A stretch of DNA of 64,000 nucleotides, from sequence record MH816966, one strand, 5' to 3'. The notes beneath the pieces are model-generated. The model had not been told where the DNA came from. It was given only the letters and a program-made list of their open reading frames with translations, and searched no databases. Origin of the DNA: Escherichia phage FEC19. The position numbers and the translations under genes were made by a program. Shown here piece by piece: positions 3,363-64,000 of this stretch. Position 1 is the stretch's first letter; each line of letters opens with the position of its first letter.

Positions 3363-3598
3363 TGCACCTCTGTTATTCCGGTAATGCGAACGATTACGGT
3401 GTCATCTAAATTGAACTGCTGCCGCGCGACGCGCTTGATGTCGTCCTTAAGGTCCGCAATCAACTCCCTTGTTAACACTGTACGCTCTGAGACGTCATAT
3501 TGAACGTCAAAGGTATACTCGCCATAAAATACCGCGCCATTGGGAAGTTGTACGACATAGAATGCCATGTACATTGCATTGATATAATCTTCCATCAT
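3359..3598 (-). CDS. hypothetical protein (79 aa)
   Basis: Start refined to the internal ATG forming an ATGA overlap with the upstream stop. Confidence 0.4.
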   Translation of the reverse strand: MMEDYINAMYMAFYVVQLPNGAVFYGEYTFDVQYDVSERTVLTRELIADLKDDIKRVARQQFNLDDTVIVRITGITEVQ

Positions 3599-3942
3599 AC
3601 ATTCTCCACGGGTCGACGAATGAGTTTGCGTAATCCTTCGGGCCAGACCTTCTTGATGACGGCCTTTGCTGGGCTGGATGAAAGCTTCTTCAGCTTCAAT
3701 AGGACACATCCTTCATCATCGTTCGGTTGCACCTGGATAACGACTCGCGCTTGTCGGTCGATGACCATGACATCCCCAATGCGAATGTCTTTTACCAACA
3801 CGCCCATCTCCTTCGTGCCGGATACGCCATTGATGTGATCAAAACCTTTTCGCAGCGGTTTCATTATTTCTTCTCCTGCCATTTCTCTGACACGCTTCTT
3901 AATCTCTGCGCCAAACAACACTTCGTCTTTAACATGAGCCAT
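3595..3942 (-). CDS. hypothetical protein (115 aa)
   Basis: Start refined to MAHVKD to remove overlap with the upstream gene. Confidence 0.4.
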   Translation of the reverse strand: MAHVKDEVLFGAEIKKRVREMAGEEIMKPLRKGFDHINGVSGTKEMGVLVKDIRIGDVMVIDRQARVVIQVQPNDDEGCVLLKLKKLSSSPAKAVIKKVWPEGLRKLIRRPVENV

Positions 3943-4408
3943 GGTCGAGTACCTTATAGAATTTAGTGGTGAATCGCTCATCGCCATAGTAGCGATACTT
4001 GCCGCCGCCAGTGTTATCAAACCTTACCCATTGAATTAAAGTCTGGTCAGCGTCGTGCGACACGTAAATCACCCGGCCATTAACAGGAATTGCGCCCTCT
4101 TCCGCGTCCTTGCTTATGATTGAATCGCCGTTCTTGATGTCAAATATGTCAATCGGCTTAAGGCGCGGCTTTTTATCAACATAAGTTTGAATAGGAACTC
4201 TTACGCAACGTGATTGATGATGGACAAGTCTTTCAACATGCCTTTTGGTTGGCGGTAAAATCTCGAATGACTCAACGCCTGCAAACTCGCTGTCGATAAA
4301 TTTATTTATTTTCATCCTTAATGGAATTGGGACGTTACATTGACTTGTTGCTGCTAAAATAATTGCTGCTTCTGTTTTACTTAACATTAAAGGGCGATGA
4401 ATGATCAT
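3929..4408 (-). CDS. hypothetical protein (159 aa)
   Basis: Intact ORF in the co-directional early array; no recognisable motif. Confidence 0.45.
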   Translation of the reverse strand: MIIHRPLMLSKTEAAIILAATSQCNVPIPLRMKINKFIDSEFAGVESFEILPPTKRHVERLVHHQSRCVRVPIQTYVDKKPRLKPIDIFDIKNGDSIISKDAEEGAIPVNGRVIYVSHDADQTLIQWVRFDNTGGGKYRYYGDERFTTKFYKVLDHGSC

Positions 4409-41895: not shown

Positions 41896-42362
41896 TATAA
41901 AATCTCTTGGTTGCTCACGCCAGTTTTGACTACGTTCTCAAACTTAAAGCGATATTGACGTGTTTTTACACGACCCTGAGACTGGATGCCAGGAATTACT
42001 GAGCCAGTCGTCAAAGTGCCCTTGTTCAGTGTAATGACCATGCCAGAAGGGTAGGTCAGAATAAGGGTGATCACGTCTTTCGCAGAGTTCTTTCGCTTGC
42101 CTACACGGTTAGCCGCTGCCAGAACATCTAAGTTCACATCGCTTTCAGAAGTAGGGATGATGTTGACGCCTACTTCAAGAGGGTTGGCACGGTTCCATAC
42201 TACCAGGTCACCGTTCAATCCCATTGCTGCTTCAGAGATTTGAAGATCAGGCGCGTCAATCGGATCAGCATCATCTGCGAAATCAGAAAGAGTTACACCA
42301 TTTGGAAAAGTGTTTGATGCCACTAAACGAATCGAAGCGCCAAAACCGGAAACGTTAATCAT
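41895..42362 (-). CDS. tail tube protein
   Basis: 155 aa immediately downstream of the sheath gene; paralog of 40447-40944. Confidence 0.6.
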   Translation of the reverse strand: MINVSGFGASIRLVASNTFPNGVTLSDFADDADPIDAPDLQISEAAMGLNGDLVVWNRANPLEVGVNIIPTSESDVNLDVLAAANRVGKRKNSAKDVITLILTYPSGMVITLNKGTLTTGSVIPGIQSQGRVKTRQYRFKFENVVKTGVSNQEIL

Positions 42363-48237: not shown

Positions 48238-49656
48238 TTATTCCCCTTTCAACCAAGCTTCAAACGCTTCGTCAGTTGCTGCAGAATCCGCAGCGGCCTT
48301 TTGTTTTGCGACTACACGCTGTTTTTGACCGTGTTCAACGCCGCGCAGATAATTATCCACCACGTCAAACTCAGCACCATCAACGCACTTCAAGCCTAAC
48401 TTTTTAGCGCCATATTTCGCTACGGACTTGGAGTCCATAGTTGCATGATCAAAGGCACCAACAACTTTAGACAGGCGCTGGTAGAGGCTATTCTTACGAG
48501 CAGAATCAGCGTAGAAAGCAGCAACTGCTGAATCAGATGCCATTGAGTGTTCCCCTTTTGCTGGACCTGGCGACGCTTTCGCCGCTTTTGTCGGTTTGTC
48601 ATCTTTTTCGACCGAAGCCCCCTTTACGTTGCTGTTTTGCAGGCCGCTAACCACATCTTCAGCTTTGTCGCAAGGTGATACATCTTCAGCCTTGACTTCA
48701 ACTTCTTCGTCTTTGACTTCGGCTTCAACTTCTTCTTCATCACCTACCGCGCCACCTTTCAGTTTTGCAATAAGTGCTTCGATTTGGCTGATCAGTTGCG
48801 GAAGCTCGCCGCCAGCGTGAGATTCAGTTTCAACTTCAAACTTCTCTTCACCTTCTGGAGTCTCTTCAGCTTCTGCTTTGACTTCTGGATCAACCATCAC
48901 TTCTTCACGTTCTTCGGTTGAATCCTTCTCTTCTGCTTTCACTTCAACTTCGTCCTGATGAGCAGCTTCGGTGCTCTCTTCATTCAGAAATTGTTCGAGC
49001 GCAGGGATCAGTGACTTCAGCTGTTCAACAGCATTATCACGCGCTTTACCTTTTAACGGTTTTGGCATGTCTAAATCCTCGTTGGATGGTGTTACAGTCG
49101 TCAAACAAAGATGGTCAAAGCAACGACCATCCAGCACCCGTGCACCTGGTACTCGACCAACGTCCACGAGAGCAATGTGGTTGCCGCGAAGAGTTGTCTG
49201 TACCACTTCATACGGCTGCCCGTCAAACTCTCCAGACTGTATGATGAATTCACAGTCATAGCCCAAAGACAAGTCAACCTTTCCAGAATCGATGGCTTTC
49301 TTCAGACGACGGCTAAAAACTTTAAGGTCGCCGCGCATCCATGGCTTGTCATAATAAACATTGCCAGTTAGAACGCCATCAACGCCATACTCTTCGGGTG
49401 CTGTGTTATCCTCATCACCTTCGAATCCAGAAAGCATTTCGTGATTGTCGATGAAAGGGATATTTTTGAATGAATCTATCGCTTCGGGGTCTTTCACCGC
49501 TGACTCTGGGCGATAAACTTTTACGATGCGATTCGGATCACCATCAAGTCCAACCTGACCTGCAGAATAATCAAAAATGCCAAATGACGAAATGGGACAA
49601 CCCACAATCGTCAAGAATCCATTTTTGTCAATTTCGCGTGCCGTTTGCATTCGCAT
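48238..49656 (-). CDS. prohead protease/scaffolding-like protein
   Basis: Globular N-terminal about 180 aa followed by a long acidic Glu/Val/Lys-rich helical region (EEVEAEVKDEEVEVKAED). Confidence 0.55.
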   Translation of the reverse strand: MRMQTAREIDKNGFLTIVGCPISSFGIFDYSAGQVGLDGDPNRIVKVYRPESAVKDPEAIDSFKNIPFIDNHEMLSGFEGDEDNTAPEEYGVDGVLTGNVYYDKPWMRGDLKVFSRRLKKAIDSGKVDLSLGYDCEFIIQSGEFDGQPYEVVQTTLRGNHIALVDVGRVPGARVLDGRCFDHLCLTTVTPSNEDLDMPKPLKGKARDNAVEQLKSLIPALEQFLNEESTEAAHQDEVEVKAEEKDSTEEREEVMVDPEVKAEAEETPEGEEKFEVETESHAGGELPQLISQIEALIAKLKGGAVGDEEEVEAEVKDEEVEVKAEDVSPCDKAEDVVSGLQNSNVKGASVEKDDKPTKAAKASPGPAKGEHSMASDSAVAAFYADSARKNSLYQRLSKVVGAFDHATMDSKSVAKYGAKKLGLKCVDGAEFDVVDNYLRGVEHGQKQRVVAKQKAAADSAATDEAFEAWLKGE

Positions 49657-49744
49657 CCACCCTCAAATAAGTATTGTGTATTATATCTAATGAAAAAAAC
49701 TTAGGCAAACAATAATTATGGTTTGAATATGTATAACAACCGAT

Positions 49745-50030
49745 ATAGCCGCGCCTTAATTAGTGTGATACGGATGATACGGATAAAATGAGGCGTATTT
49801 TTATCCGTATCGGTGTATAAGCCGCGCTATCACTGGTGTGCTACGGATGATACGGATGATACGGATACTTTTCATATATAAGAGTTTATAAAAAAAATAA
49901 AATTAAATTAGATATATAATTTTAAATTAATTTATTTGAATTCCTATAAAGTATCGCGGCAACGCGTATCATCCGTATCATCCGTAAGATTCTTTTGAAA
50001 ACAACTACTTACTTGATACGGATGATACGT
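49745..50030. repeat. iteron-like 9-bp repeat array flanking an AT-rich core
   Basis: GATACGGAT units, direct at 49767-49784, 49843-49868 and 50015-50029 and inverted at 49803-49811 and 49967-49987, around an 80-bp core of over 80% A+T (49869-49950). Confidence 0.7.
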
Positions 50031-50073
50031 CATTATACGCGTAAAATCCTGCGGCAATCCATTGCCAGGCGAT

Positions 50074-50211
50074 TCAGTGAATATTAAAAAGCACTCCAGC
50101 AACTAAAACGCCAATCAGCATCGAGTCGTAAACAGCCCATTTCCAAGAAAGCAAAGAGTTGCAATTAATATTTCGCACTTTAACGTAACGTGACTGAATA
50201 ATCTTTTGCAT
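50074..50211 (-). CDS. small membrane protein (45 aa)
   Basis: Not in the ORF track; GAGGAAG RBS; C-terminal hydrophobic helix MLIGVLVAGVLFNI. Confidence 0.3.
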   Translation of the reverse strand: MQKIIQSRYVKVRNINCNSLLSWKWAVYDSMLIGVLVAGVLFNIH

Positions 50212-52002: not shown

Positions 52003-54378
52003 TCAACCTTGCTTCGGTGAATTAGTAGGATTATTGAGTGCTCCGTATGCTTGAGAGCAATCACCCTTCAACCACTCTTTGAATGAGTTCACATCTAATT
52101 CGTGGATTGAGTCGAATCCGTTCCAACCGTTACCAAATGATGCCTGATAAGCTTCTTTTGCTTCTTCTGCTGAATCGAATCCAAGCATGCACTTGTGTTC
52201 ATCGAACTCGCCAGAGTAGTTATCGTTTTGGTTCACGATAAAGACCTTCGGCGACTTCAGATTTGTGCCAACAAAGCAGTCGACTTCATCGCCGTCCGCG
52301 CCCTTGGTGCCTTTGATGAATCCGTAGTGGTGCGGCATCTTGACTGCCCATTCACCGTCAAGGCTGTTTCCTCTACGGATGCTGTTGCGAGGATTCTCAA
52401 TCCCAAGAATCAGCCCATGCAACTTCATCTTAGGTAATGATGCTGCGTCCATCTTTCCAACGTTGTGTCGTAAGTTGACGACATTACCTTTGACGCTTGG
52501 AAGGGTAGACGGTTGCACCGACCGTGAATCTTTTTGAGGGTCAAAATCCACATCCTGACCTTCTTTCAGGTAGTAATCCGCAATACCCTCCAGACCTTCT
52601 TTCAACTGCGTTAGGACATCAACCTGATGGCTTGATTCATCGTCGGTATCGTCCATGTTGATTTCGACAGGCGCTCTGTCAGGGTTTTCCGCCAACTCAC
52701 CGCGCGCGGCACCTTCTGGCATAATGCCTGTTTCACTGTAGAACTGGCCGCCCATCTTAACGACATCAGCTTTCGCCTGTTCAATATCGGCCTTACCTTG
52801 TAGGACTTCACCAGCAGACTTGCCAAGCAATGCCATATTCTCTGGAGACATCCCTGGTGTTTCTTCTGCCGCATCTTCCGGCAGACGGTTGTAGCCGCTG
52901 TTTTTGTCGTCTTTGATGCGGTCGCGCTCTTCATCAGGAGAAATGACGCCAGCATCAATAAGAGTTTTGCCAGTGTTGGCTCGCTTATCATTGATTTCTG
53001 CAAGTTGAGTAGCAGTAAGTGAGCCAACTGGTTCCCATGCAACCTTAACATCGACATCCACCCCTTCTGATTTGAGAAGGATTTTGTAATGGCGGTCGAG
53101 AATTTTTGTCAGGTCATGCTGCTGGCACGTTTCCAACTCTTCGTGATAGCTGACCATCTCGAATTCACCAGTGGCGTTAAAGCCTTTTGGCGAAGTCCCA
53201 AGCAGTTTGGTCGACGGAACTTTTGCGATTGCGGCCACCAGCTGGTACTGGTTCATGATGATGCTGTCGAAGTCTGACAAGTTGATATCAAACTGGTCCA
53301 TCTCTTCTTTTTGGCCAAGCACTTTGACTGCATAGTTGTCGCGGTACTTGATCCACATCATCAGACGTTCTGCAAAAGACCGCTCATTGGCAATCGCCTT
53401 GTCAACGTCGGTCCGCAGCGTGGTTGTACGCTTGGACATCGCCAGCAATGGCGCTTCGTTAGCGGTACGTTCAGCGGCATAGATGCGTTCATAAATCTGC
53501 TGAGTCAGAGGAATGCCGCCGTAAATATAAGTTGGCTTGAGAATATCAGCTGGCTCATCATTGCGCAAGATGATGAGGTGACTTCGATGATAACGTTGTC
53601 CACTGATCACCCAGTATTCTGGATCATAGAAGTGCTGTGATGCAGGGTCGGCGGTGTTTTCAGACGTCAAAAATGGCATCATCCAATAAGGGTCGACCTG
53701 AATGATTCCCTTATAAGACCCCTTTGTCACACCATCAATGTTAAAAGGCTTGCTGTAATATTCTGGGTCATCGCTACGCACATCAAATATGATGACGCGG
53801 ATACCAAAAATATTTTTGAATCGTTCGGCTTCAACTAAGTGCTCTTTGATATTAAATTCTTTATCAATTTGCTTTAGGCGTTCGCTTGCCTGTACTGACA
53901 ATTCTGACTCAGAACTGGATTTGACTTCCCATCCTTTACGGACCGCATCGCGGCCTACCATGGAACAAGCCTTGTTCACCAGCCAGTGCTGCGCGATGAT
54001 GGCGCAAGCTTGATATCCGATAAATGATTGCGATAAGTACCAGTTTTGCAACTGAATAGGTACTGTGTATGGGTTGACTTGCCCTTCTGAACTGATGTTC
54101 TTTAAGGCATTATCCATAACTTTTTTGGATACTGTTGCGGAATCGACTGAGCGACCTTTTATGATTGCAACACCATCGCCATTAATATCAGGCTCATATA
54201 AAGGGAAGTCATCAACCGTTTTAAAGGTCGGTCGATTGCTTTCAGTCTTTTCCCAGCGTTGACCGCTGCCGCGCCTTTCAAGGCGTTCAAACGGTGCCAA
54301 TGGGTCGCCTGGCGGCATCTCCGCTGGTTCGGCTTCTGGTTGCGTCTTCTCCCAGAGTTTTATGCCAAGAATTTTCAT
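52003..54378 (-). CDS. portal protein with C-terminal inorganic pyrophosphatase-like domain
   Basis: Portal-like central region; last about 160 aa carry HHYGFIKGTKGADGDEVDCFVG and GFDSAEEAKEAYQASF, resembling family I pyrophosphatase; start at ATG 54378 (MKILGIK) with GGTGG RBS. Confidence 0.65.
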   Translation of the reverse strand: MKILGIKLWEKTQPEAEPAEMPPGDPLAPFERLERRGSGQRWEKTESNRPTFKTVDDFPLYEPDINGDGVAIIKGRSVDSATVSKKVMDNALKNISSEGQVNPYTVPIQLQNWYLSQSFIGYQACAIIAQHWLVNKACSMVGRDAVRKGWEVKSSSESELSVQASERLKQIDKEFNIKEHLVEAERFKNIFGIRVIIFDVRSDDPEYYSKPFNIDGVTKGSYKGIIQVDPYWMMPFLTSENTADPASQHFYDPEYWVISGQRYHRSHLIILRNDEPADILKPTYIYGGIPLTQQIYERIYAAERTANEAPLLAMSKRTTTLRTDVDKAIANERSFAERLMMWIKYRDNYAVKVLGQKEEMDQFDINLSDFDSIIMNQYQLVAAIAKVPSTKLLGTSPKGFNATGEFEMVSYHEELETCQQHDLTKILDRHYKILLKSEGVDVDVKVAWEPVGSLTATQLAEINDKRANTGKTLIDAGVISPDEERDRIKDDKNSGYNRLPEDAAEETPGMSPENMALLGKSAGEVLQGKADIEQAKADVVKMGGQFYSETGIMPEGAARGELAENPDRAPVEINMDDTDDESSHQVDVLTQLKEGLEGIADYYLKEGQDVDFDPQKDSRSVQPSTLPSVKGNVVNLRHNVGKMDAASLPKMKLHGLILGIENPRNSIRRGNSLDGEWAVKMPHHYGFIKGTKGADGDEVDCFVGTNLKSPKVFIVNQNDNYSGEFDEHKCMLGFDSAEEAKEAYQASFGNGWNGFDSIHELDVNSFKEWLKGDCSQAYGALNNPTNSPKQG

Positions 54379-54540
54379 TGTTAACGCCACCTGACAGTGA
54401 AAGGGAATCAATCTATATTATAAATATTCATGTGTTTGTAAGCAAATGATATGTATGGTGATCATAAATAGTTCATAAAATATTTTGCTTTTGTATCATT
54501 TTGAGTTATATTTTAGTTAACCAAACGAAAGGAGATTGAA

Positions 54541-58070: not shown

Positions 58071-60407
58071 ATGCCAAGGCTAATATTCAAAAACAACTTT
58101 GAGGTCGCGCTTGCTCAGCCAACGACGACTTCAGACACCACAATTACAATCCGCTCAGGGTCGGGCTTTCCGACCTTGGCCGCAAACGAGCGTGTAGTGG
58201 CGACAATCGTCGACGCTGCAACAGGCCTCCAATTCGAAATCATCACAGTAACAGCCGTCGTTGGTGATGTCCTGACCGTTCAGCGTGCACAGGAAGGGAC
58301 TGCAGCGCGTGCATGGGCGGCTGGCGACATGCTTTCCATTCGAACAACTGCTGCGACTTTGACGGGTACTGTCCGAAACTTTGGCGTAATTCCTAATGGA
58401 GTAAACCTTAACGCGCTGAACGGAAGCTGGTTCGGGCAGTATTACCAACTGGCTGATTCTGGGGCATCAATATCACTCAACTATCCTGTCGCACAAGCGG
58501 GAATACTTGAAGTTTTACAAACGGGAGTTTCAACGAACGGATGTGTTCAGCGATACACACCTTACAACACTAACACTGTATACCAGAGGCTGTATAATGC
58601 CATCACATCAACTTGGTCTGATTGGGTTCAAGTTTATAATACGCAAAGCGTTATACCAGTCGCAAATGGCGGTACAGGACAAACGACCATCCAAGGGATG
58701 AAGTCTGCTTTTGGATTCGGAACGGTCGCTGATCAAAACATTGTTCCCACTTCAATGGGCGGTACGGGATCAGCAGACAATGCGCAGGCATGGCTTAACA
58801 TTCGTCCACAAGGGTCGACTCCGCTGGCTGGCGACCCTGTGAATGATTATGATGCCGCAACTAAGCGTTGGGTTGAGAACTTAGTAAATACTGGCACCGT
58901 TGGCCCAAGCATGAACGGTGTTATGAACTATGGCGTCGGTGACTTCCACTTACGCGACAGTCGTGCTTATATTCAACCATATGAAGTCGTTGCTGATGGG
59001 CAGTTGTTAAACCGCGCTGACTGGCCTGAACTTTGGGCGTATGCGCAAATGCTTTCTCCTATTGCTGATGCCGACTGGCTTGCTGACCCAGCGAAACGCG
59101 GCAAGTATTCACTTGGTAATGGCACAACGACATTCCGTGTACCAGACAGAAATGGTGTCCAGACCGGTTCCATACAAGCCTTATTTGGCAGGGGTGACGG
59201 CGGTAATTCATCGGCCAACGGAGTCGTTTCTGAGTCAGGTGCACCAAATATAACTTACTCCGCGCCGCACACAATGGTCACGTTGGCTTCTGCGCCAAGT
59301 CAGGTGGCGACTAATGGCGCTTTTCAGTCGATCACTTCTGGGGACTCTCCAGCAGCAGCAGGTTCTGGTTCAAGATTCATACAAACAAACTTTGACGCTT
59401 CTCGATCAAGCCCTGTATACGGAAGATCAGCAGCGGAAATCGTTCCGCGTAACTTTGTTGGCGTTTGGGTGATTCGTGCATCGGGTGGCTTTGTTGCCGC
59501 GAATACGACTTGGAGCGTTATTAATGGTGACGCAGTAAAACCTGCAACCGGAACGCTTGTCAGAGGCGGCAGTGTAAAATCTGAATATAAAATTGGCACC
59601 AACATTGCGTATCAAGCATTCTTGCAAGCATACGGTAAGATTGATGGATTAACGTCTGAACAAGGTGCTGTGATATCTAATGGGGTGCAAGAATGGAAGT
59701 TTGCGCAAGATGGCACATTTTATTTCCCTAACTCCATAAATCAAATTGGCACGGAAAGGACAGACGGGGCGCTGAATGTTAATGCATATCTCAGACCAAA
59801 AGACCTTGTTGCGCAACCGTTAAACTCAGTAGGCGTTGCAGCGTATGAAAGCAACGGCATGAGGATGATAAACTTCAACCAGTCAACACCTGGGTATGTA
59901 TCATATTTTTCAGGGGATTGGTATGCTGGCAGCTATACATTCGGAGGCGTTCGAGGCACTGGAACTGATTTGATGCACGCGCAAATATCCATAAACAATG
60001 GGCAAGGCGCTGCAGCAGATTTCAAATTCATGCCTGATGGTACTGCTACTGCAGGGAACTGGGTCAGCACGTCTGATGAGAGGGTCAAGACAAATATTCA
60101 AAGGATCTCCGACCCGTTAGGAAAGATGAGATTGATCAAGGGTGTGACTTGGGAGCGCCTTGATAAGTCAGAGAAACCGAATGGCATCGGATTTATAGCT
60201 CAAGATGTAGAAGGTGTATTTCCTGACGCAGTAAAAACTTTGAAATATTCAAACACGGAACTCAAGGATGGGACTGTTGTCGAAGATATCAAGTCAGTTG
60301 ACACTTACGGCGTTGCAGCGGCACTGCACCACGAGGCTATTCTCGCATTGATGGATCAAATAGATGAACTCAAGGCAGAGATAGCCGCGCTGAAAGCAGC
60401 GAAATAA
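58071..60407 (+). CDS. tail fibre/tailspike with C-terminal S74 intramolecular chaperone domain
   Basis: C-terminal SDERVKTNIQRISDPLGKMRLIKGVTWERL and coiled-coil tail, typical of self-cleaving chaperone domains of fibres and endosialidases. Confidence 0.8.
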   Translation: MPRLIFKNNFEVALAQPTTTSDTTITIRSGSGFPTLAANERVVATIVDAATGLQFEIITVTAVVGDVLTVQRAQEGTAARAWAAGDMLSIRTTAATLTGTVRNFGVIPNGVNLNALNGSWFGQYYQLADSGASISLNYPVAQAGILEVLQTGVSTNGCVQRYTPYNTNTVYQRLYNAITSTWSDWVQVYNTQSVIPVANGGTGQTTIQGMKSAFGFGTVADQNIVPTSMGGTGSADNAQAWLNIRPQGSTPLAGDPVNDYDAATKRWVENLVNTGTVGPSMNGVMNYGVGDFHLRDSRAYIQPYEVVADGQLLNRADWPELWAYAQMLSPIADADWLADPAKRGKYSLGNGTTTFRVPDRNGVQTGSIQALFGRGDGGNSSANGVVSESGAPNITYSAPHTMVTLASAPSQVATNGAFQSITSGDSPAAAGSGSRFIQTNFDASRSSPVYGRSAAEIVPRNFVGVWVIRASGGFVAANTTWSVINGDAVKPATGTLVRGGSVKSEYKIGTNIAYQAFLQAYGKIDGLTSEQGAVISNGVQEWKFAQDGTFYFPNSINQIGTERTDGALNVNAYLRPKDLVAQPLNSVGVAAYESNGMRMINFNQSTPGYVSYFSGDWYAGSYTFGGVRGTGTDLMHAQISINNGQGAAADFKFMPDGTATAGNWVSTSDERVKTNIQRISDPLGKMRLIKGVTWERLDKSEKPNGIGFIAQDVEGVFPDAVKTLKYSNTELKDGTVVEDIKSVDTYGVAAALHHEAILALMDQIDELKAEIAALKAAK

Positions 60408-62216: not shown

Positions 62217-62679
62217 AGTGTACTGCAAATTTACTGTGGGCACAAAATAGTACGGTACTGTCTAGGACTTTTTCTTTGAAAAGTTAGTGGACCAAATGTG
62301 TCGTATTTTGATTAGTGTACTGCAAATTTCATCAAGTACCAAAACGCACCAAAAGACCCATGCCCTAAAAACCACACGAACGCAATAATCAATCGCCGTT
62401 ACAGTTTCCAGCGTTACAATTAGAAAGCGAATGATTCGGCGCATAATAATATGAAGCATAATAGTTCGAAAGCGAATGATTGCGCGCAGAATAATATCGG
62501 TTGGGATTATTCTAGATGTCGGTAATTTCGCATGCGTACTATTTTCGGGCGAAGGGTCGGCATATTTCTCGTTTTAGTTCGGAACGAAGGGAAAGTTTTG
62601 CGCCTTTATAAAACAACGACTTGCGCGACCCGCCTTAACGTTCCGATATAGGTGTCTATATAAAACAACGACTTACGCG
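62217..62679. repeat. direct-repeat-rich noncoding region
   Basis: 16-bp AGTGTACTGCAAATTT at 62217 and 62314; about 30-bp GAAAGCGAATGATT...ATAATAT at 62424 and 62468; 22-bp TATAAAACAACGACTT(G/A)CGCGA at 62606 and 62658. Confidence 0.6.
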
Positions 62680-62802
62680 ATGTTCTCCATTTAACGTAAT
62701 ACCTGTTATGCGAACTAAGGCGCATCTCGATGAAGATTATGCGACGAAGAAGGGAAGGATAAAGGAGTTTTCGCGGAGAAGCGCATCGAGATAGGGGCGA
62801 AG

Positions 62803-62824
62803 AAAAGCCGCGACTAAGCGCGGC
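62803..62824 (-). terminator. rho-independent terminator ending the CpG-rich minus-strand gene set
   Basis: GCCGCG-ACTAAG-CGCGGC with a U-run following on the minus transcript. Confidence 0.55.
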
Positions 62825-62850
62825 CTATTAGTAACGGTGGGTGATTATAA

Positions 62851-63060
62851 TTAAAGGAATAATCCGGCGCGTTTAATTTGCCCAAGGACGTTATCGCGAC
62901 GGCGACGCATAACCGCGTATTTAACTTCTTCTTCGTATCCCCAGCCGCCGATGGATAACATCGAGTTCATATTATCGCATAATTCCTTAAGCTCGCGAAA
63001 CATATCGATTACGGCGGAGCGATGGGCGCGCGCGTTAAGAGAGTTATTCATATTAATCAT
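62851..63060 (-). CDS. hypothetical protein (69 aa), CpG-rich island
   Basis: ORF with codon composition distinct from the rest of the window; followed by a minus-strand terminator. Confidence 0.4.
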   Translation of the reverse strand: MINMNNSLNARAHRSAVIDMFRELKELCDNMNSMLSIGGWGYEEEVKYAVMRRRRDNVLGQIKRAGLFL

Positions 63061-63070
63061 TTTCTTCTCC

Positions 63071-63361
63071 TTAAAGGCTTACGATTTTAAAGAAAGTTAC
63101 TTCGCCGCCGAGTTGCGGTACAGCGATATATTCGCCGCCGATTTCGGTAATCGTATAAACGAAGCCGTTAATCGTTACGCGGTAGGATACGATGTCCTCG
63201 TCGCGATACTTGTAAAGGTCGAGGAAGTTGATCGGCTCATAAATAGCCTCGATAGTCGCGTCGACGTTAAAAAGATAGACGTGTTTAAGTTTTTCACCAA
63301 ATACATTGGAGTTTTCGGAAGTCTCGACGCGAGCGTCGCGGATAGCGGCTAAAGTAATCAT
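63071..63361 (-). CDS. hypothetical protein (96 aa), CpG-rich island
   Basis: ATG preceded by CTAGGAG RBS and the conserved promoter/leader cassette. Confidence 0.45.
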   Translation of the reverse strand: MITLAAIRDARVETSENSNVFGEKLKHVYLFNVDATIEAIYEPINFLDLYKYRDEDIVSYRVTINGFVYTITEIGGEYIAVPQLGGEVTFFKIVSL

Positions 63362-63429
63362 AATATTCTCCTAGTTAGTCGGGAGGGTAGCGACCTATTC
63401 GCTACCTCATCCCCTCTCGATATAAAACA

Positions 63430-63457
63430 TTATAGTCTTAGTGTACGAATAAGTAAA
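63430..63457 (-). promoter_or_regulatory. promoter of conserved right-end cassette (copy 1)
   Basis: Minus sense TTTACT-16-TATAAT with conserved flanks, upstream of 63071-63361. Confidence 0.5.
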
Positions 63458-63468
63458 GCACTTTTTCG

Positions 63469-63771
63469 TTATTTTGCGATAAAATATTTATAAGCCTTAT
63501 CGCCTTCTACGTCGATATACTCGACGATAATTAATTCTTCGCCGCGTGGCGTAACCGTCTCGATAAGGGTAACGGCTTCGTCGTCGGTCTTCGCGAAGCG
63601 GATTGCGCTACGTTCGGCATACTTAATATCGTCGAAGGATAATCCGACGAAGGCGACGGCGCGCGCTTTAATAATGCTCGTTTCGAGTTCCGCGTTAACG
63701 GCGGCGATAAGAGAGCGAACGGTTAAGCGGTCTTCGTCGTAAGTAAGGATAGAAGAGATTAAAGTGGTCAT
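63469..63771 (-). CDS. hypothetical protein (100 aa), CpG-rich island
   Basis: Start refined to ATG at 63771 after GGGAG; its own TTTACT-16-TATACT promoter. Confidence 0.45.
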   Translation of the reverse strand: MTTLISSILTYDEDRLTVRSLIAAVNAELETSIIKARAVAFVGLSFDDIKYAERSAIRFAKTDDEAVTLIETVTPRGEELIIVEYIDVEGDKAYKYFIAK

Positions 63772-63827
63772 AATAAAACTCCCGGTGCTAGTAGAAGGAA
63801 GGGCCATCGCCCGTCTCGATATGAACA

Positions 63828-63855
63828 AGTATACGCGAGTGTACGAAGAAGTAAA
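63828..63855 (-). promoter_or_regulatory. promoter of conserved right-end cassette (copy 3)
   Basis: Minus sense TTTACT-16-TATACT followed by the GTTCATATCGAGACGGG leader, upstream of 63469-63771. Confidence 0.45.
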
Positions 63856-63899
63856 GAAAAAAGATAAAATAATTTATCGCATTTTTATCGAAAAAGTGC

Positions 63900-63927
63900 T
63901 TTACTTTTTTCTACACTATATTATAAT
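63900..63927 (+). promoter_or_regulatory. promoter of conserved right-end cassette (copy 2)
   Basis: TTTACT-16-TATAAT driving a plus-strand gene whose ATG is at 63998 (truncated by the window end). Confidence 0.5.
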
Positions 63928-64000
63928 GTACTCATATCGGGACGGGATGAGTTAACGAATAGGTCGTTAACGCCTCTCCCCAACTAGGAGTTTATTATGG

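What the first reader, a model, noticed from the sequence alone, without database searches (positions are those of the whole stretch)
49745..50030. Iteron-like 9-bp repeat array around an AT-rich core inside the head gene module
At least nine copies of GATACGGAT in both orientations bracket an 80-bp stretch of over 80% A+T, in a 417-bp gap between a small membrane-protein gene and the scaffold gene. The left pair of repeats is embedded in a larger duplicated unit of about 40 bp. This looks like a replication origin with an unwinding element, or alternatively a packaging site or a binding array for a late-gene regulator. No gene in the window explains it.
Basis: seen in the sequence. Interest (0 to 1): 0.75.

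Follow-up and report, generated by a model that had tools for sequence, protein, structure and literature searches.

The report
Duplicate packaging-site array in head module
The repeat array is real, and it is a conserved second copy of the DNA signal where this phage family's packaging enzyme makes its first cut; because this copy sits in front of the capsid genes rather than at the genome end, it suggests a two-site packaging signal rather than a replication origin.

Summary
There are seven exact GATACGGAT copies (0.22 expected), plus one with one mismatch and three degenerate copies, all within 49766-50032. They flank an 82-bp core of 91.5% A+T in a 417-bp gap upstream of the prohead protease gene.

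The window is a Wifcevirus. Complete relatives carry a paralogous element with the same 9-mer and the same layout, in the ~4 kb this window lacks. That copy lies directly upstream of terS (homologue of E217 TerS, PDB 7UXE). Its AT core holds the mapped left genome terminus in three independently deposited Wifceviruses, one of them by PhageTerm.

Pbunavirus, Myosmarvirus and Kylevirus also have both elements at syntenic positions. Each uses its own 8-9-bp unit, shared by both of its copies. All have strictly mirrored GCCGC/GCGGC motifs (17:0 left, 0:24 right). The terS-proximal core is the mapped pac cut in Pbunavirus (JG024 59,376 = Ab28 nt 1) and a terminal-repeat boundary in MyoSmar. Carpasinavirus lacks both elements.

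So the finding is a non-terminal paralogue of the terminase recognition site. It is most likely a second TerS docking array. Its exact role is unresolved: accessory or synapsis site, or promoter coupling. The origin reading is not supported.

The parts
49680..49708 (-). sigma70-type promoter TTGCCT-17-TATAAT for the protease/decoration/major-capsid operon. It is downstream of the array and not part of the repeat element itself.
   Evidence: Consensus scan 10/12. The homologous promoter in Pbunavirus 14-1 is an experimentally mapped TSS (P014, 13257 +; Putzeys et al. Table S3). It is conserved in PA1, MyoSmar and FoX6, and FoX6 has no element.
49747..49754 (+). Class-I motif AGCCGCGC (GCCGC polarity), first of two on this side of the core
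   Evidence: D1. Mirrored polarity across 8 elements: 17 GCCGC/0 GCGGC left of the core, 0/24 right, Fisher p=7e-12.
49766..49785 (+). Array A: two tandem 9-mers (TGATACGGATGATACGGATA)
   Evidence: Invariant in 9 aligned Wifceviruses.
49776..49811 (.). 13-bp inverted repeat GATACGGATAAAA / TTTTATCCGTATC, formed by unit A2 and the single inverted unit A' (49803-49811)
   Evidence: I8. No T-run follows, so it was not called as a terminator.
49820..49827 (+). Class-I motif AGCCGCGC, second copy, 73 bp from the first
   Evidence: D1.
49839..49868 (+). Array B: three tandem 9-mers (GCTACGGAT GATACGGAT GATACGGAT AC)
   Evidence: It is one arm of a perfect 22-nt inverted repeat with array C (I1).
49869..49950 (.). 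AT-rich core, 91.5% A+T. The position homologous to the mapped terminase cut of the terS-proximal copy is 49919|49918, but the cut-site sequence itself is not conserved here.
   Evidence: The alignment of element 1 with element 2 is A2.
49954..49961 (+). Class-I motif TCGCGGCA (49954-49961; GCGGC polarity; the CGCGGCAA octamer is 49955-49962), abutting array C
49962..49988 (-). Array C: three inverted 9-mers (ACGCGTATC ATCCGTATC ATCCGTAAG). Bas101 lacks exactly one unit here.
   Evidence: The block CTTACGGATGATACGGATGATACGCGTTGCCGCGATACTTTATA (minus strand) is nearly identical to the left half of WFH element 2.
50014..50032 (+). Array D: two 9-mers (GATACGGAT GATACGTCA). The first unit carries G->T in three relatives.
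   Evidence: Bas99 element 2 has the equivalent TACGGATGATACGTCATGATACGC.
50050..50057 (+). Class-I motif TGCGGCAA, the outermost one on the GCGGC side

Best explanation
The array is 'element 1' of a two-copy cis-acting system found in the Wifcevirus / Kylevirus / Myosmarvirus / Pbunavirus clade. Each copy is a roughly dyad-symmetric module of ~300 bp. It has GCCGC-type motifs and tandem 8-9-bp lineage-specific units on one side, an ~80-100-bp AT-rich core, and then inverted units and GCGGC(A/T) motifs on the other side.

The other copy, 'element 2', lies outside this window, directly upstream of terS. It is the packaging initiation site, because terminase cuts in its AT core. That much is shown by published terminus mapping.

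By inference, the same protein reads the lineage-specific units in both copies. That protein is most likely the small terminase TerS, whose ring of HTH domains could contact consecutive units. Element 1 would therefore be a second, normally uncut terminase docking site in front of the prohead-protease/capsid operon.

The role I think most likely is an accessory packaging site. It would load or concentrate terminase on concatemers, or synapse with pac in the way proposed for the T4 gene 16/gene 19 sites. It may secondarily couple TerS occupancy to the adjacent head-operon promoter.

Shown: the array exists, it is paralogous to element 2, both copies are conserved and use the same unit within each genome, and the terminus lies in element 2.
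For: 1. Paralogy. Bas99's complete genome has the exact 9-mer only at element 1 and at 58.69-58.95 kb. The two copies have the same layout and share near-identical blocks.

2. Link to terS. Element 2 lies upstream of a homologue of E217 TerS (PDB 7UXE, E=7e-34). It is annotated as TerS in Mansfield.

3. Termini. WFH, Ro157lw and Mansfield start at the same nucleotide, inside the element-2 core. These records carry terminal repeats of 3.7 kb (Korf 2019) and 3,673 bp (PhageTerm). JG024 long-read starts at 59,376, Ab28 nt 1 ('single fixed termination') and 14-1 59,296 are the same nucleotide at the edge of the Pbunavirus element-2 core. The MyoSmar PhageTerm boundary lies in its element-2 core. 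An IMG/VR contig of 73,168 bp does the same.

4. Same unit in both copies. Every genus has both elements with its own unit, shared by both copies. This extends to uncultivated lineages on single contigs.

5. Mirrored GCCGC/GCGGC polarity: 17:0 and 0:24, p=7e-12.

6. Co-occurrence. FoX6 and a Carpasinavirus-like contig lack both elements.

7. Constraint. The stretch 49657-49945 is invariant across Wifceviruses that are only 94-96% identical over the wider 1.2-kb region.

8. Candidate reader. TerS is at least 95% identical in all Wifceviruses, matching the invariant 9-mer. The only other candidate I tested, Bas99_0089, varies from 26 to 100% identity.
Against: No experiment shows TerS binding these repeats. 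A review reports that E217 TerS showed no appreciable DNA binding in vitro, although I could not see which DNA was tested (the primary paper is not held).

Element 1 is not a mapped terminus: 0 of 27 Wifcevirus records and 1 of 297 Pbunavirus records break there. JG024 long reads report a single start site. The sequence at the position homologous to the cut is not conserved in element 1.

Sharing of units between the two copies could partly reflect gene conversion between paralogues rather than a shared binding protein.

A period of 8-9 bp is shorter than a helical turn, which would also suit a small RHH-type protein polymerising along the DNA.

The tight, conserved placement 200-300 nt upstream of the protease gene fits a transcriptional role at least as well as a packaging role.

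The GCGGCAA heptamer is common genome-wide (39 copies in the window), so only its polarity is informative, not its presence.
Confidence: 0.55

Rival explanations
1. Regulatory array. A phage DNA-binding protein (TerS itself or an unidentified small protein) binds the tandem units in both elements to control the sigma70 promoters just downstream. These drive the head operon at element 1 and terS at element 2. This would time or balance prohead and terminase synthesis. On this view the packaging cut in element 2 is a separate, superimposed function.
For: Both elements sit upstream of strong sigma70 promoters that are experimentally mapped in 14-1: P014 before the protease gene, and P040/P041 before terS. 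The -35/spacer of P040 is overlapped by the tandem TAATTTGG units. The last motif of element 1 lies only 39 bp from the -35 hexamer. The distance from core to gene is held at 200-300 nt across very divergent lineages. TerS over-expression reduces E217 infectivity, so dosage control is plausible.
Against: FoX6 keeps both promoters without any element. Other late operons in 14-1 (P013, P015-P019) have no such arrays. Most units lie 60-350 bp upstream of the promoter and on both sides of a 100-bp AT core, which is unusual for an operator. No regulator was found, and Bas99_0089 is excluded. No TSS maps inside element 1 of 14-1.
Confidence: 0.2
2. Replication origin or origins. The AT core is a DNA unwinding element and the short repeats are initiator sites. 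The two copies would act like P4 ori and crr, bound by the phage's VirE/D5-type primase-helicase.
For: The core is 91.5% A+T and is flanked by clustered short repeats in both orientations. The two-locus arrangement with 8-9-bp units formally resembles P4 ori/crr (my knowledge). A VirE-type primase gene abuts element 2 in Pbunavirus and Myosmarvirus. P040 fires from the edge of the element-2 core, which could prime or activate an origin. The SCUT-S1 authors speculated that the AT-rich pac region 'could be a replication origin'.
Against: There is no cumulative GC-skew extremum at 49.8 kb; the extrema at ~10, 28 and 54 kb follow gene orientation. The Banzai skew minima at 42,280 and 52,360 are not at element 2, which is 57,602 in that record. 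There are no DnaA boxes. Primase adjacency is lost in Wifcevirus, where ~8 kb of small ORFs intervene, whereas adjacency to terS is universal. The one function actually mapped to this element type is terminase cutting.
Confidence: 0.13
3. Genuine second pac site. Terminase also cuts in the element-1 core and starts a second packaging series.
For: The E215 GenBank record starts in the element-1 core, ~14 nt from the position homologous to the element-2 cut. A 68.5-kb metagenomic Wifcevirus contig ends inside element 1, at window 49990. The architecture is the same as that of the mapped site.
Against: Only 1 of 297 Pbunavirus records and 0 of 27 Wifcevirus records break there, whereas several Wifcevirus records and, from 13 two-place records in the Pbunavirus search, probably a dozen or so Pbunavirus records break at element 2. 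With ~300 records, one random start within +-15 nt has a chance of ~0.14 (my estimate). Assembly breaks at a 95%-AT, low-coverage stretch are an ordinary artefact. JG024 long reads and PhageTerm runs on Mansfield and MyoSmar report one site. The cut-site sequence is not conserved.
Confidence: 0.08
4. Inert repeat: a decaying duplicate or MITE-like insertion without function.
For: The structure has a dyad-symmetric shape with terminal inverted motifs. Bas101 has lost one unit by slippage.
Against: The position is syntenic in at least four genera whose protease proteins are only 45-60% identical. Units turn over in step with the other copy. The sequence is near-invariant within Wifcevirus.
Confidence: 0.02

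Closest known systems
Phage P1 pac site (from my knowledge: seven TGATCA/G hexamers in two clusters flanking the cleavage region; bound by PacA; IHF/HU stimulated)
   Same: Both have clusters of a short repeated motif on both sides of a central region where terminase cuts. Both lie at or next to the terS (pacA) gene; here that applies to element 2.
   Different: P1 has a single site inside pacA. Its hexamers are palindromic Dam sites and it has an IHF site. Here the units are 8-9 bp, non-palindromic and in mirrored tandem arrays. There is also a second class of mirrored GCCGC/GCGGC motifs, no IHF consensus, and a second non-terminal copy, which is the finding.
Bacillus phage SPP1 pac (pacL-pacC-pacR; TerS G1P binds both flanks, TerL cuts pacC). 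Summarised in the TerS review, PMC9611059.
   Same: Both show multi-point TerS contacts flanking the cut, an AT-rich or bent character, and a location at the 5' end of terS overlapping its promoter region.
   Different: SPP1 has one site. Its boxes are few and not in long tandem arrays. No paralogue in the head module is known.
T4 'twin-ring pac synapsis': homologous sequences in gene 16 (terS) and gene 19 synapsed by gp16 double rings (Black lab model; mentioned in PMC9611059)
   Same: Both involve two homologous terminase-related sites in one genome, one at terS and one kilobases away among structural genes. E217 TerS is reported to form higher-order ring oligomers.
   Different: The T4 sites are short, lie within coding sequence, are ~3 kb apart and have no unique mapped cut. 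Here both sites are ~300-bp intergenic modules 16-20 kb apart, and one carries a precise cut. Synapsis here is pure inference.
Phage P4 ori / crr (from my knowledge: two loci with TGTTCACC octamers in both orientations, bound by the alpha primase-helicase)
   Same: Both have two loci, short 8-9-bp units in both orientations, and a phage primase of the VirE/D5 type encoded nearby in some genera.
   Different: The function of the P4 sites is replication. Here the only mapped activity is terminase cleavage, and linkage to the primase gene is not conserved whereas linkage to terS is.
Published Pbunavirus 'pac' calls (JG024 59,376; SCUT-S1 'Pac site in an AT-rich region'; Ab27-29 fixed read end) and Wifcevirus/Myosmarvirus PhageTerm terminal repeats
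   Same: These are the same physical site as element 2, to the nucleotide.
   Different: In the papers I could search, none describes the repeat architecture, the cross-genus unit turnover, the mirrored GCCGC/GCGGC motifs, or the second copy in the head module.

Membership tests
pac / terminus-type terminase recognition site | A packaged-DNA end (fixed read start or terminal-repeat boundary) maps inside it | tested here: not met
   This applies to element 1, the finding. No Wifcevirus record (0/27) and only E215 of 297 Pbunavirus records breaks there. JG024 long reads give one start, at element 2. The feature is met for the paralogue, element 2, in Wifce-, Pbuna- and Myosmarvirus and in a Kyle-like contig.
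pac / terminus-type terminase recognition site | Sequence homology to a mapped packaging site of the same phage | tested here: met
   The same exact 9-mer occurs only at these two loci in Bas99. Alignment A2 shows shared blocks of ~45 nt, nearly identical to the left half of WFH element 2.
pac / terminus-type terminase recognition site | Specific binding by the small terminase | not testable with these tools
   The support is circumstantial only. Element 2 abuts terS in every lineage. TerS conservation tracks unit conservation. E217 TerS was reported not to bind DNA in vitro, with the substrate unknown to me.
pac / terminus-type terminase recognition site | Location in or next to terS | tested here: not met
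   Element 1 is ~16 kb from terS, measured on Bas99 coordinates.
Iteron-type replication origin | AT-rich unwinding element next to the repeats | tested here: met
   The stretch 49869-49950 is 91.5% A+T.
Iteron-type replication origin | Direct 17-22-bp iterons and a cognate Rep/initiator gene | tested here: not met
   The units are 9 bp, contiguous and in mirrored orientation. No initiator is annotated or detected.
Iteron-type replication origin | DnaA boxes / host-factor sites | tested here: not met
   There is no exact TTATNCACA in 49650-50100, only three one-mismatch matches. There is no IHF consensus.
Iteron-type replication origin | Strand-composition (GC-skew) switch at the site | tested here: not met
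   The cumulative skew has extrema at ~10, ~28 and ~54 kb that follow gene orientation, and none at 49.8 kb. Skew is a weak test in phages.
P4 ori/crr-type two-site replicon | Two loci with short units bound by the primase-helicase | tested here: inconclusive
   The two-locus form is met. Binding is untestable. Primase adjacency is present in Pbuna/Myosmar but lost in Wifcevirus.
Operator array of a tandem-repeat-binding regulator (MetJ/omega-like logic) | Units overlap or abut the core promoter | tested here: not met
   In element 1 the nearest 9-mer (49766) is 58 bp, and the nearest class-I motif 39 bp, upstream of the -35 hexamer. The feature is met for P040 in 14-1 element 2.
Structured RNA gene | Rfam match at gathering score, or a mapped transcript | tested here: not met
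   There are only sub-threshold miRNA-type or sRNA-type hits of 20-32 bits against cut-offs of 50-211, which reflect the long inverted repeat. No TSS maps in the homologous 14-1 region.

The most novel reading that the evidence does not exclude
The clade uses a bipartite packaging signal. The head-module element is an obligatory partner of pac. TerS rings bound to the two paralogous arrays synapse two sites 16-20 kb apart (or on sister genomes in a concatemer) to license the first cut. This would be the first sequence-defined, cross-genus example of the 'twin-ring pac synapsis' idea so far confined to T4. The lineage-specific 8-9-mers would then form a natural specificity code for TerS-DNA recognition.
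Probability: 0.2. Interest if true: 0.85.

Novelty: new variant of a known kind. Interest (0 to 1): 0.62.

Why it matters
How small terminases recognise viral DNA is a long-standing open problem. TerS structures abound, but specific binding has rarely been reconstituted. E217 TerS, the solved structure from this clade, reportedly showed no DNA binding in vitro.

This analysis supplies concrete candidate recognition sequences for that protein and its relatives:
- tandem lineage-specific units plus mirrored GCGGC motifs around a cut mapped to the nucleotide;
- at least eight natural specificity variants that could be used in swap experiments;
- an unexpected conserved second copy in front of the capsid operon.

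Pbunaviruses are among the Pseudomonas phages most used in therapy, and they are being rebooted from synthetic DNA. Knowing the cis-acting packaging elements matters for genome engineering, for example where insertions can be placed and what must be kept. It also helps in judging transduction risk. Finally, it reconciles the contradictory reports on Pbunavirus genome ends: all the positive terminus calls fall on one nucleotide.

Tried and rejected
- Rfam gave only sub-threshold hairpin-type hits, so an RNA gene was rejected.
- The terminator scan found that the A/A' hairpin has no T-run. One weak terminator-like site lies inside the 45-aa ORF. I did not pursue either.
- I searched for other copies of the element within the window by BLAST and found none. 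The extra 'places' in relatives were the array matching itself.
- IHF and DnaA consensus searches found nothing.
- GCGGCAA as a diagnostic motif was rejected because it is common genome-wide. Only its polarity was used.
- MyoSmar nucleotide 1 as a terminus in an element was not met. The record is in the opposite orientation, and the other repeat boundary is the relevant one.
- The right boundary of the Wifcevirus terminal repeat (window 62351|62352) has no such element.
- Bas99_0089 (marginal DUF1492 hit) was rejected as the reader protein on distribution and variability.
- A Pfam scan of ten small ORFs near element 2, the terminal repeat and the TerL-portal gap found no DNA-binding domain.
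- The 14-1 TTS/TU tables were uninformative for element 1, because long transcripts were poorly captured.
- The Banzai paper gives no PhageTerm peak coordinates.
- The E217 terminase paper (PMC10026623) is not held, so I could not see which DNA was used in the binding assays.
- I ran no structure prediction, fold search or large protein-database search. TerS identity was settled by a PDB sequence match.
Full report
**What is in the sequence.** The region was read directly. The nonamer GATACGGAT occurs exactly seven times in the 64-kb window, and all seven lie between 49767 and 50023. Dinucleotide-preserving shuffles give a mean of 0.22, and none of 100 reaches seven. One copy with one mismatch and three degenerate in-register units bring the total to eleven.

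The units are contiguous, with a 9-bp period, and form five blocks:
- A, 49766-85: two units
- A', 49803-11: one unit, inverted
- B, 49839-68: three units
- C, 49962-88: three units, inverted
- D, 50014-32: two units

B and C form a perfect 22-nt inverted repeat. Between them, 49869-49950 is 91.5% A+T. A and B are each preceded by AGCCGCGC within a duplicated 38-nt unit spaced 73 bp apart. C and D are accompanied by CGCGGCAA and TGCGGCAA.

The array fills a 417-bp gap between a 45-aa ORF and the 472-aa DUF2213 prohead protease/scaffold gene, both on the minus strand. A sigma70-like promoter (TTGCCT-17-TATAAT, 49708..49680, minus strand) sits between the array and the protease start codon.

**Whose genome this is.** The window is 99.8% identical over 1.2 kb to Wifcevirus phages (TH35, ECO71P1; also WFH, ECML-117, Ro157lw, Mansfield and BASEL Bas98-101). 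These are ~68-kb E. coli myoviruses, distantly related to the Pseudomonas Pbunaviruses, and little is known of their molecular biology. In an alignment of nine Wifceviruses, 49657-49945 is essentially invariant, even in the subgroup that is only 94-96% identical over the wider 1.2-kb region. Variation is confined to the distal side. Bas101 lacks exactly one 9-bp unit of C, and three phages carry G->T in D.

**The architecture is conserved across genera, but the repeat unit is not.** The same kind of module occupies the syntenic gap upstream of the protease gene in four genera. Each has two direct sets, an AT-rich core, and then inverted sets.

| Phage (genus) | Repeat unit |
|---|---|
| Window (Wifcevirus) | GATACGGAT |
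| Pantoea phage PA1 (Kylevirus) | AACCGTTAT |
| Serratia phage MyoSmar (Myosmarvirus) | TACTTTTC(G) |
| PA8P1 and 14-1 (Pbunavirus) | TGGTAATT |

All of them share a second motif class with strict mirror polarity. Over eight elements, GCCGC:GCGGC is 17:0 on one side of the core and 0:24 on the other (Fisher p=7e-12). The genome background is symmetric, at 144:174. The heptamer GCGGCAA is itself common genome-wide, with 39 copies in the window. So I use only the polarity as evidence.

**There is a second, paralogous copy, and it lies outside the window.** In the complete genome of Bas99, the exact 9-mer occurs only at the head-module element and at 58.69-58.95 kb. The window lacks roughly Bas99 56.8-61.1 kb. 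That second locus has the same design and aligns with element 1. The block CTTACGGATGATACGGATGATACGCGTyGCCGCnATACTTTATA is almost identical between window element 1 and WFH element 2.

Element 2 lies immediately upstream of a 157-aa ORF that matches the solved small terminase of Pbunavirus E217 (PDB 7UXE, E=7e-34). The same ORF is annotated as TerS in Mansfield. The pattern repeats elsewhere. PA1, the Myosmarviruses Hera and MyoSmar, and 14-1 each have an element 2 upstream of their own terS, built from their own genus-specific unit.

IMG/VR scans with TerS and protease profiles added uncultivated lineages with further units: ATCGGATA, GTTGCGG, ATAACC/ATATCC, CCGGTAAG, CAACTATC and CTTAGTTA. 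Wherever both positions lie on one contig, the same unit dominates both. Xanthomonas phage FoX6 and a Carpasinavirus-like contig lack both elements, yet keep the promoters in front of the protease and terS genes. So the two elements are present together or absent together.

**What element 2 does is known from terminus mapping.**
- *Wifcevirus.* WFH and WFC carry 'a terminal repeat of about 3.7 kb' (Korf 2019). In WFH the repeat is 3,701 bp, and its first base lies inside the element-2 AT core...aaacaattaactcc|ATTTTGAATTAATTT. Ro157lw comes from another laboratory and starts at the same nucleotide. So does Mansfield, whose record is annotated 'direct terminal repeat predicted by PhageTerm', 3,673 bp.
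- *Myosmarvirus.* In MyoSmar the PhageTerm repeat of 3,559 bp has its terS-side boundary ~25 nt past the left tandem repeat, in the element-2 core.
- *Kyle-like contig.* A 73,168-bp IMG/VR contig with a ~3.6-kb terminal repeat also begins in its element-2 core.
[quoted passage not shown] Ipoutcha et al. found 36 of 161 long reads starting at JG024 59,376 +-5, together with a matching pac restriction fragment. Guo et al. reported a PhageTerm 'Pac site… in an AT-rich region'. I mapped JG024 59,376, Ab28 nt 1 and 14-1 59,296 to the same nucleotide, 601 nt upstream of terS at the left edge of the element-2 core. The PA8P1, E2005-C, PA11P1 and SIIA-P1 records start within +-2 nt of that position.

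Element 2 is therefore the packaging initiation and cleavage site of this clade.

**What that implies for element 1, the finding.** Element 1 is a conserved, non-terminal paralogue of the pac/terminus element. It is not itself a mapped end. None of 27 Wifcevirus records breaks there. Only E215, of 297 Pbunavirus records, starts in its core, ~14 nt from the position homologous to the cut. One metagenomic Wifcevirus contig ends at window 49990. Both cases could be ordinary assembly breaks at a 95%-AT stretch. The JG024 long reads show a single start site. The position homologous to the cut is window 49919|49918, but the cut-site sequence is not conserved there.

Transcript mapping in 14-1 shows a sigma70 TSS (P014, 13257) that is the homologue of the window's promoter. 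It shows none within element 1. In element 2, by contrast, P040 starts at the edge of the core, and its -35/spacer is overlapped by the tandem units.

**Most likely mechanism, with shown and inferred steps separated.**
- *Shown:* a two-copy cis system; lineage-specific units that change in step in both copies; mirrored architecture; terminase cutting in one copy.
- *Inferred:* one phage protein reads the units in both copies. TerS is the best candidate for three reasons. Element 2 is linked to terS in every lineage. It is the site where terminase acts. And TerS is at least 95% identical across Wifceviruses with an invariant 9-mer, whereas the only other candidate I could test varies from 26 to 100% identity and is confined to Wifcevirus.

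I therefore read element 1 as a second TerS docking array that is bound but normally not cut. It would act as an accessory packaging site, either recruiting terminase or synapsing with pac. It might also feed back on the adjacent head-operon promoter. My confidence in this package is ~0.55. The specific role is the weakest step.

**Rivals.**
- A regulator array for the head and terS promoters (0.2) fits the conserved placement upstream of mapped promoters and the overlap at P040. But FoX6 runs the same promoters without any elements, and other late operons have none.
Against it: there is no skew signal, no DnaA box and no initiator, and linkage to the primase gene is lost in Wifcevirus whereas linkage to terS is universal.
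- A true second pac (0.08) rests on two sequence ends, the start of the E215 record and one metagenomic contig end.
- An inert repeat (0.02) is contradicted by conservation.

**Comparison with known systems.** The comparisons with P1, T4 and P4 rest on my own knowledge; the SPP1 and T4 models are also summarised.
- The module works like the P1 and SPP1 pac sites, with repeated TerS contacts on both flanks of a central cut next to terS.
- It differs in having long tandem arrays of 8-9-bp units, a second mirrored motif class, no IHF site, and above all a conserved second copy 16-20 kb away.
- The nearest precedent for two terminase-related sites is the T4 gene 16/gene 19 synapsis model.
- In the papers I could search, the pac position of Pbunaviruses and the terminal repeats of Wifce/Myosmarviruses are reported. 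The repeat architecture, its cross-genus unit turnover and the head-module paralogue are not.
- A review states that E217 TerS showed no appreciable DNA binding in vitro. I could not access the primary paper.

**Caveats.**
- terS, element 2 and the left terminus are not in the window. Those statements rest on relatives that are 91-100% identical in that region, and all 27 Wifcevirus records contain element 2.
- Record starts can be copied between depositors. However, PhageTerm, coverage-based and long-read evidence is explicit for Mansfield, MyoSmar, WFH/WFC, Ab27-29, SCUT-S1 and JG024.
- Identity of units between the two copies could be helped by gene conversion between them.
- No binding experiment exists.

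**Verdict.** The origin reading is not supported, and the 'packaging site' alternative is half right. The feature is a new variant of a known kind: a duplicated, non-terminal copy of a terminase recognition module. Interest 0.62.

Noticed in passing
window 62351|62352 (terminal repeat covers 62352-64000 and beyond): The right boundary of the ~3.7-kb Wifcevirus direct terminal repeat (WFH 3,701 bp; Mansfield 3,673 bp) maps here, so the window holds about 1.65 kb of the repeat. There is no 9-mer array or AT core at this boundary. Nearby are direct repeats AATTTGCAGTACACT x2 and AATCATTCGCTTTC x2, and a TGCGCGGCAGGCAA motif about 140 nt away. What defines this end is unexplained.
   Followed up: partly
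whole window; e.g. 49956, 50051, 50310, 50340, 50755, 50778: The heptamer GCGGCAA occurs 39 times on both strands, against ~6 in mononucleotide shuffles, and [CT]GCGGCA occurs 54 times against ~12. The strands are mixed, so it is not polar like Chi. It may simply reflect Ala-Ala codon usage. No codon-aware control was run.
   Followed up: partly
L015 8520-8760 (Bas99 58.52-58.76 kb); L017 1500-1775 (14-1 59.0-59.27 kb): The non-packaged (left) flank of element 2 is mosaic. Only 2 of 27 Wifcevirus records and 107 of 298 Pbunavirus records match at least 80% of a 601-nt query spanning it. Homology resumes ~20-60 nt before the cut. This suggests a recombination hot spot at pac.
   Followed up: no
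L017 1500-1640 and 2040-2260; L019 520-680 and 1000-1130; L028 (MyoSmar 3560-3950): Element 2 of Pbuna- and Myosmarviruses is flanked by a G/T-rich tract on the left, with repeated TTGTGG/GATTGTGG, and by its mirror on the right, a C/A-rich tract with CCACAA. This is a third mirrored component. I did not see it around element 1 in the window.
   Followed up: no
window 49847-49875 (- strand): A weak sigma70-like match (ATGAAA-17-TATCAT, 9/12) lies at the gene-proximal edge of the AT core and overlaps array B. Its position is analogous to the mapped promoter P040 in 14-1 element 2. No TSS was mapped at the equivalent spot of 14-1 element 1.
   Followed up: partly
L002 (Bas101) vs window 49962-49970: Bas101 has lost exactly 9 bp, one repeat unit, from array C. 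This is a clean slippage event showing that unit number is not strictly fixed on the distal side.
   Followed up: yes
L015 7724-8173 (Bas99_0089), outside the window: A 149-aa ORF ~500 bp upstream of element 2 is hypervariable among Wifceviruses (26-100% identity). It gives a sub-threshold Pfam hit to DUF1492 (16.5 bits vs cut-off 21.5). From memory, that family is related to RinA/ArpU-type late activators. It has no homologue in the other genera by tblastn.
   Followed up: partly
window 52003-54411 (- strand, 802-aa portal/'minor head protein'): The homologue in MyoSmar is annotated as containing an inorganic pyrophosphatase family domain (IPR008162) at its C-terminal part, which is unusual for a portal-region protein. 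I did not examine it.
   Followed up: no
L023 (E215 nt 1 = 14-1 12,954); L068 (IMG/VR contig end = window 49990): Two independent assemblies break inside element 1. E215 starts in the AT core, and a 68.5-kb metagenomic Wifcevirus contig ends at the outer edge of array C. This could be a coverage drop-out at 95% A+T, or a minor physical end.
   Followed up: partly
whole genome (literature: PMC11990801, PMC10913387): Wifceviruses are reported to resist restriction considerably, and JG024 DNA resists ScaI, NdeI and BsaI. This hints at DNA modification in this clade. The window encodes a thymidylate synthase, a MazG-like pyrophosphatase and a polynucleotide kinase (annotation from Bas99). Any effect of modification on recognition of the T-rich units is unknown.
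   Followed up: no
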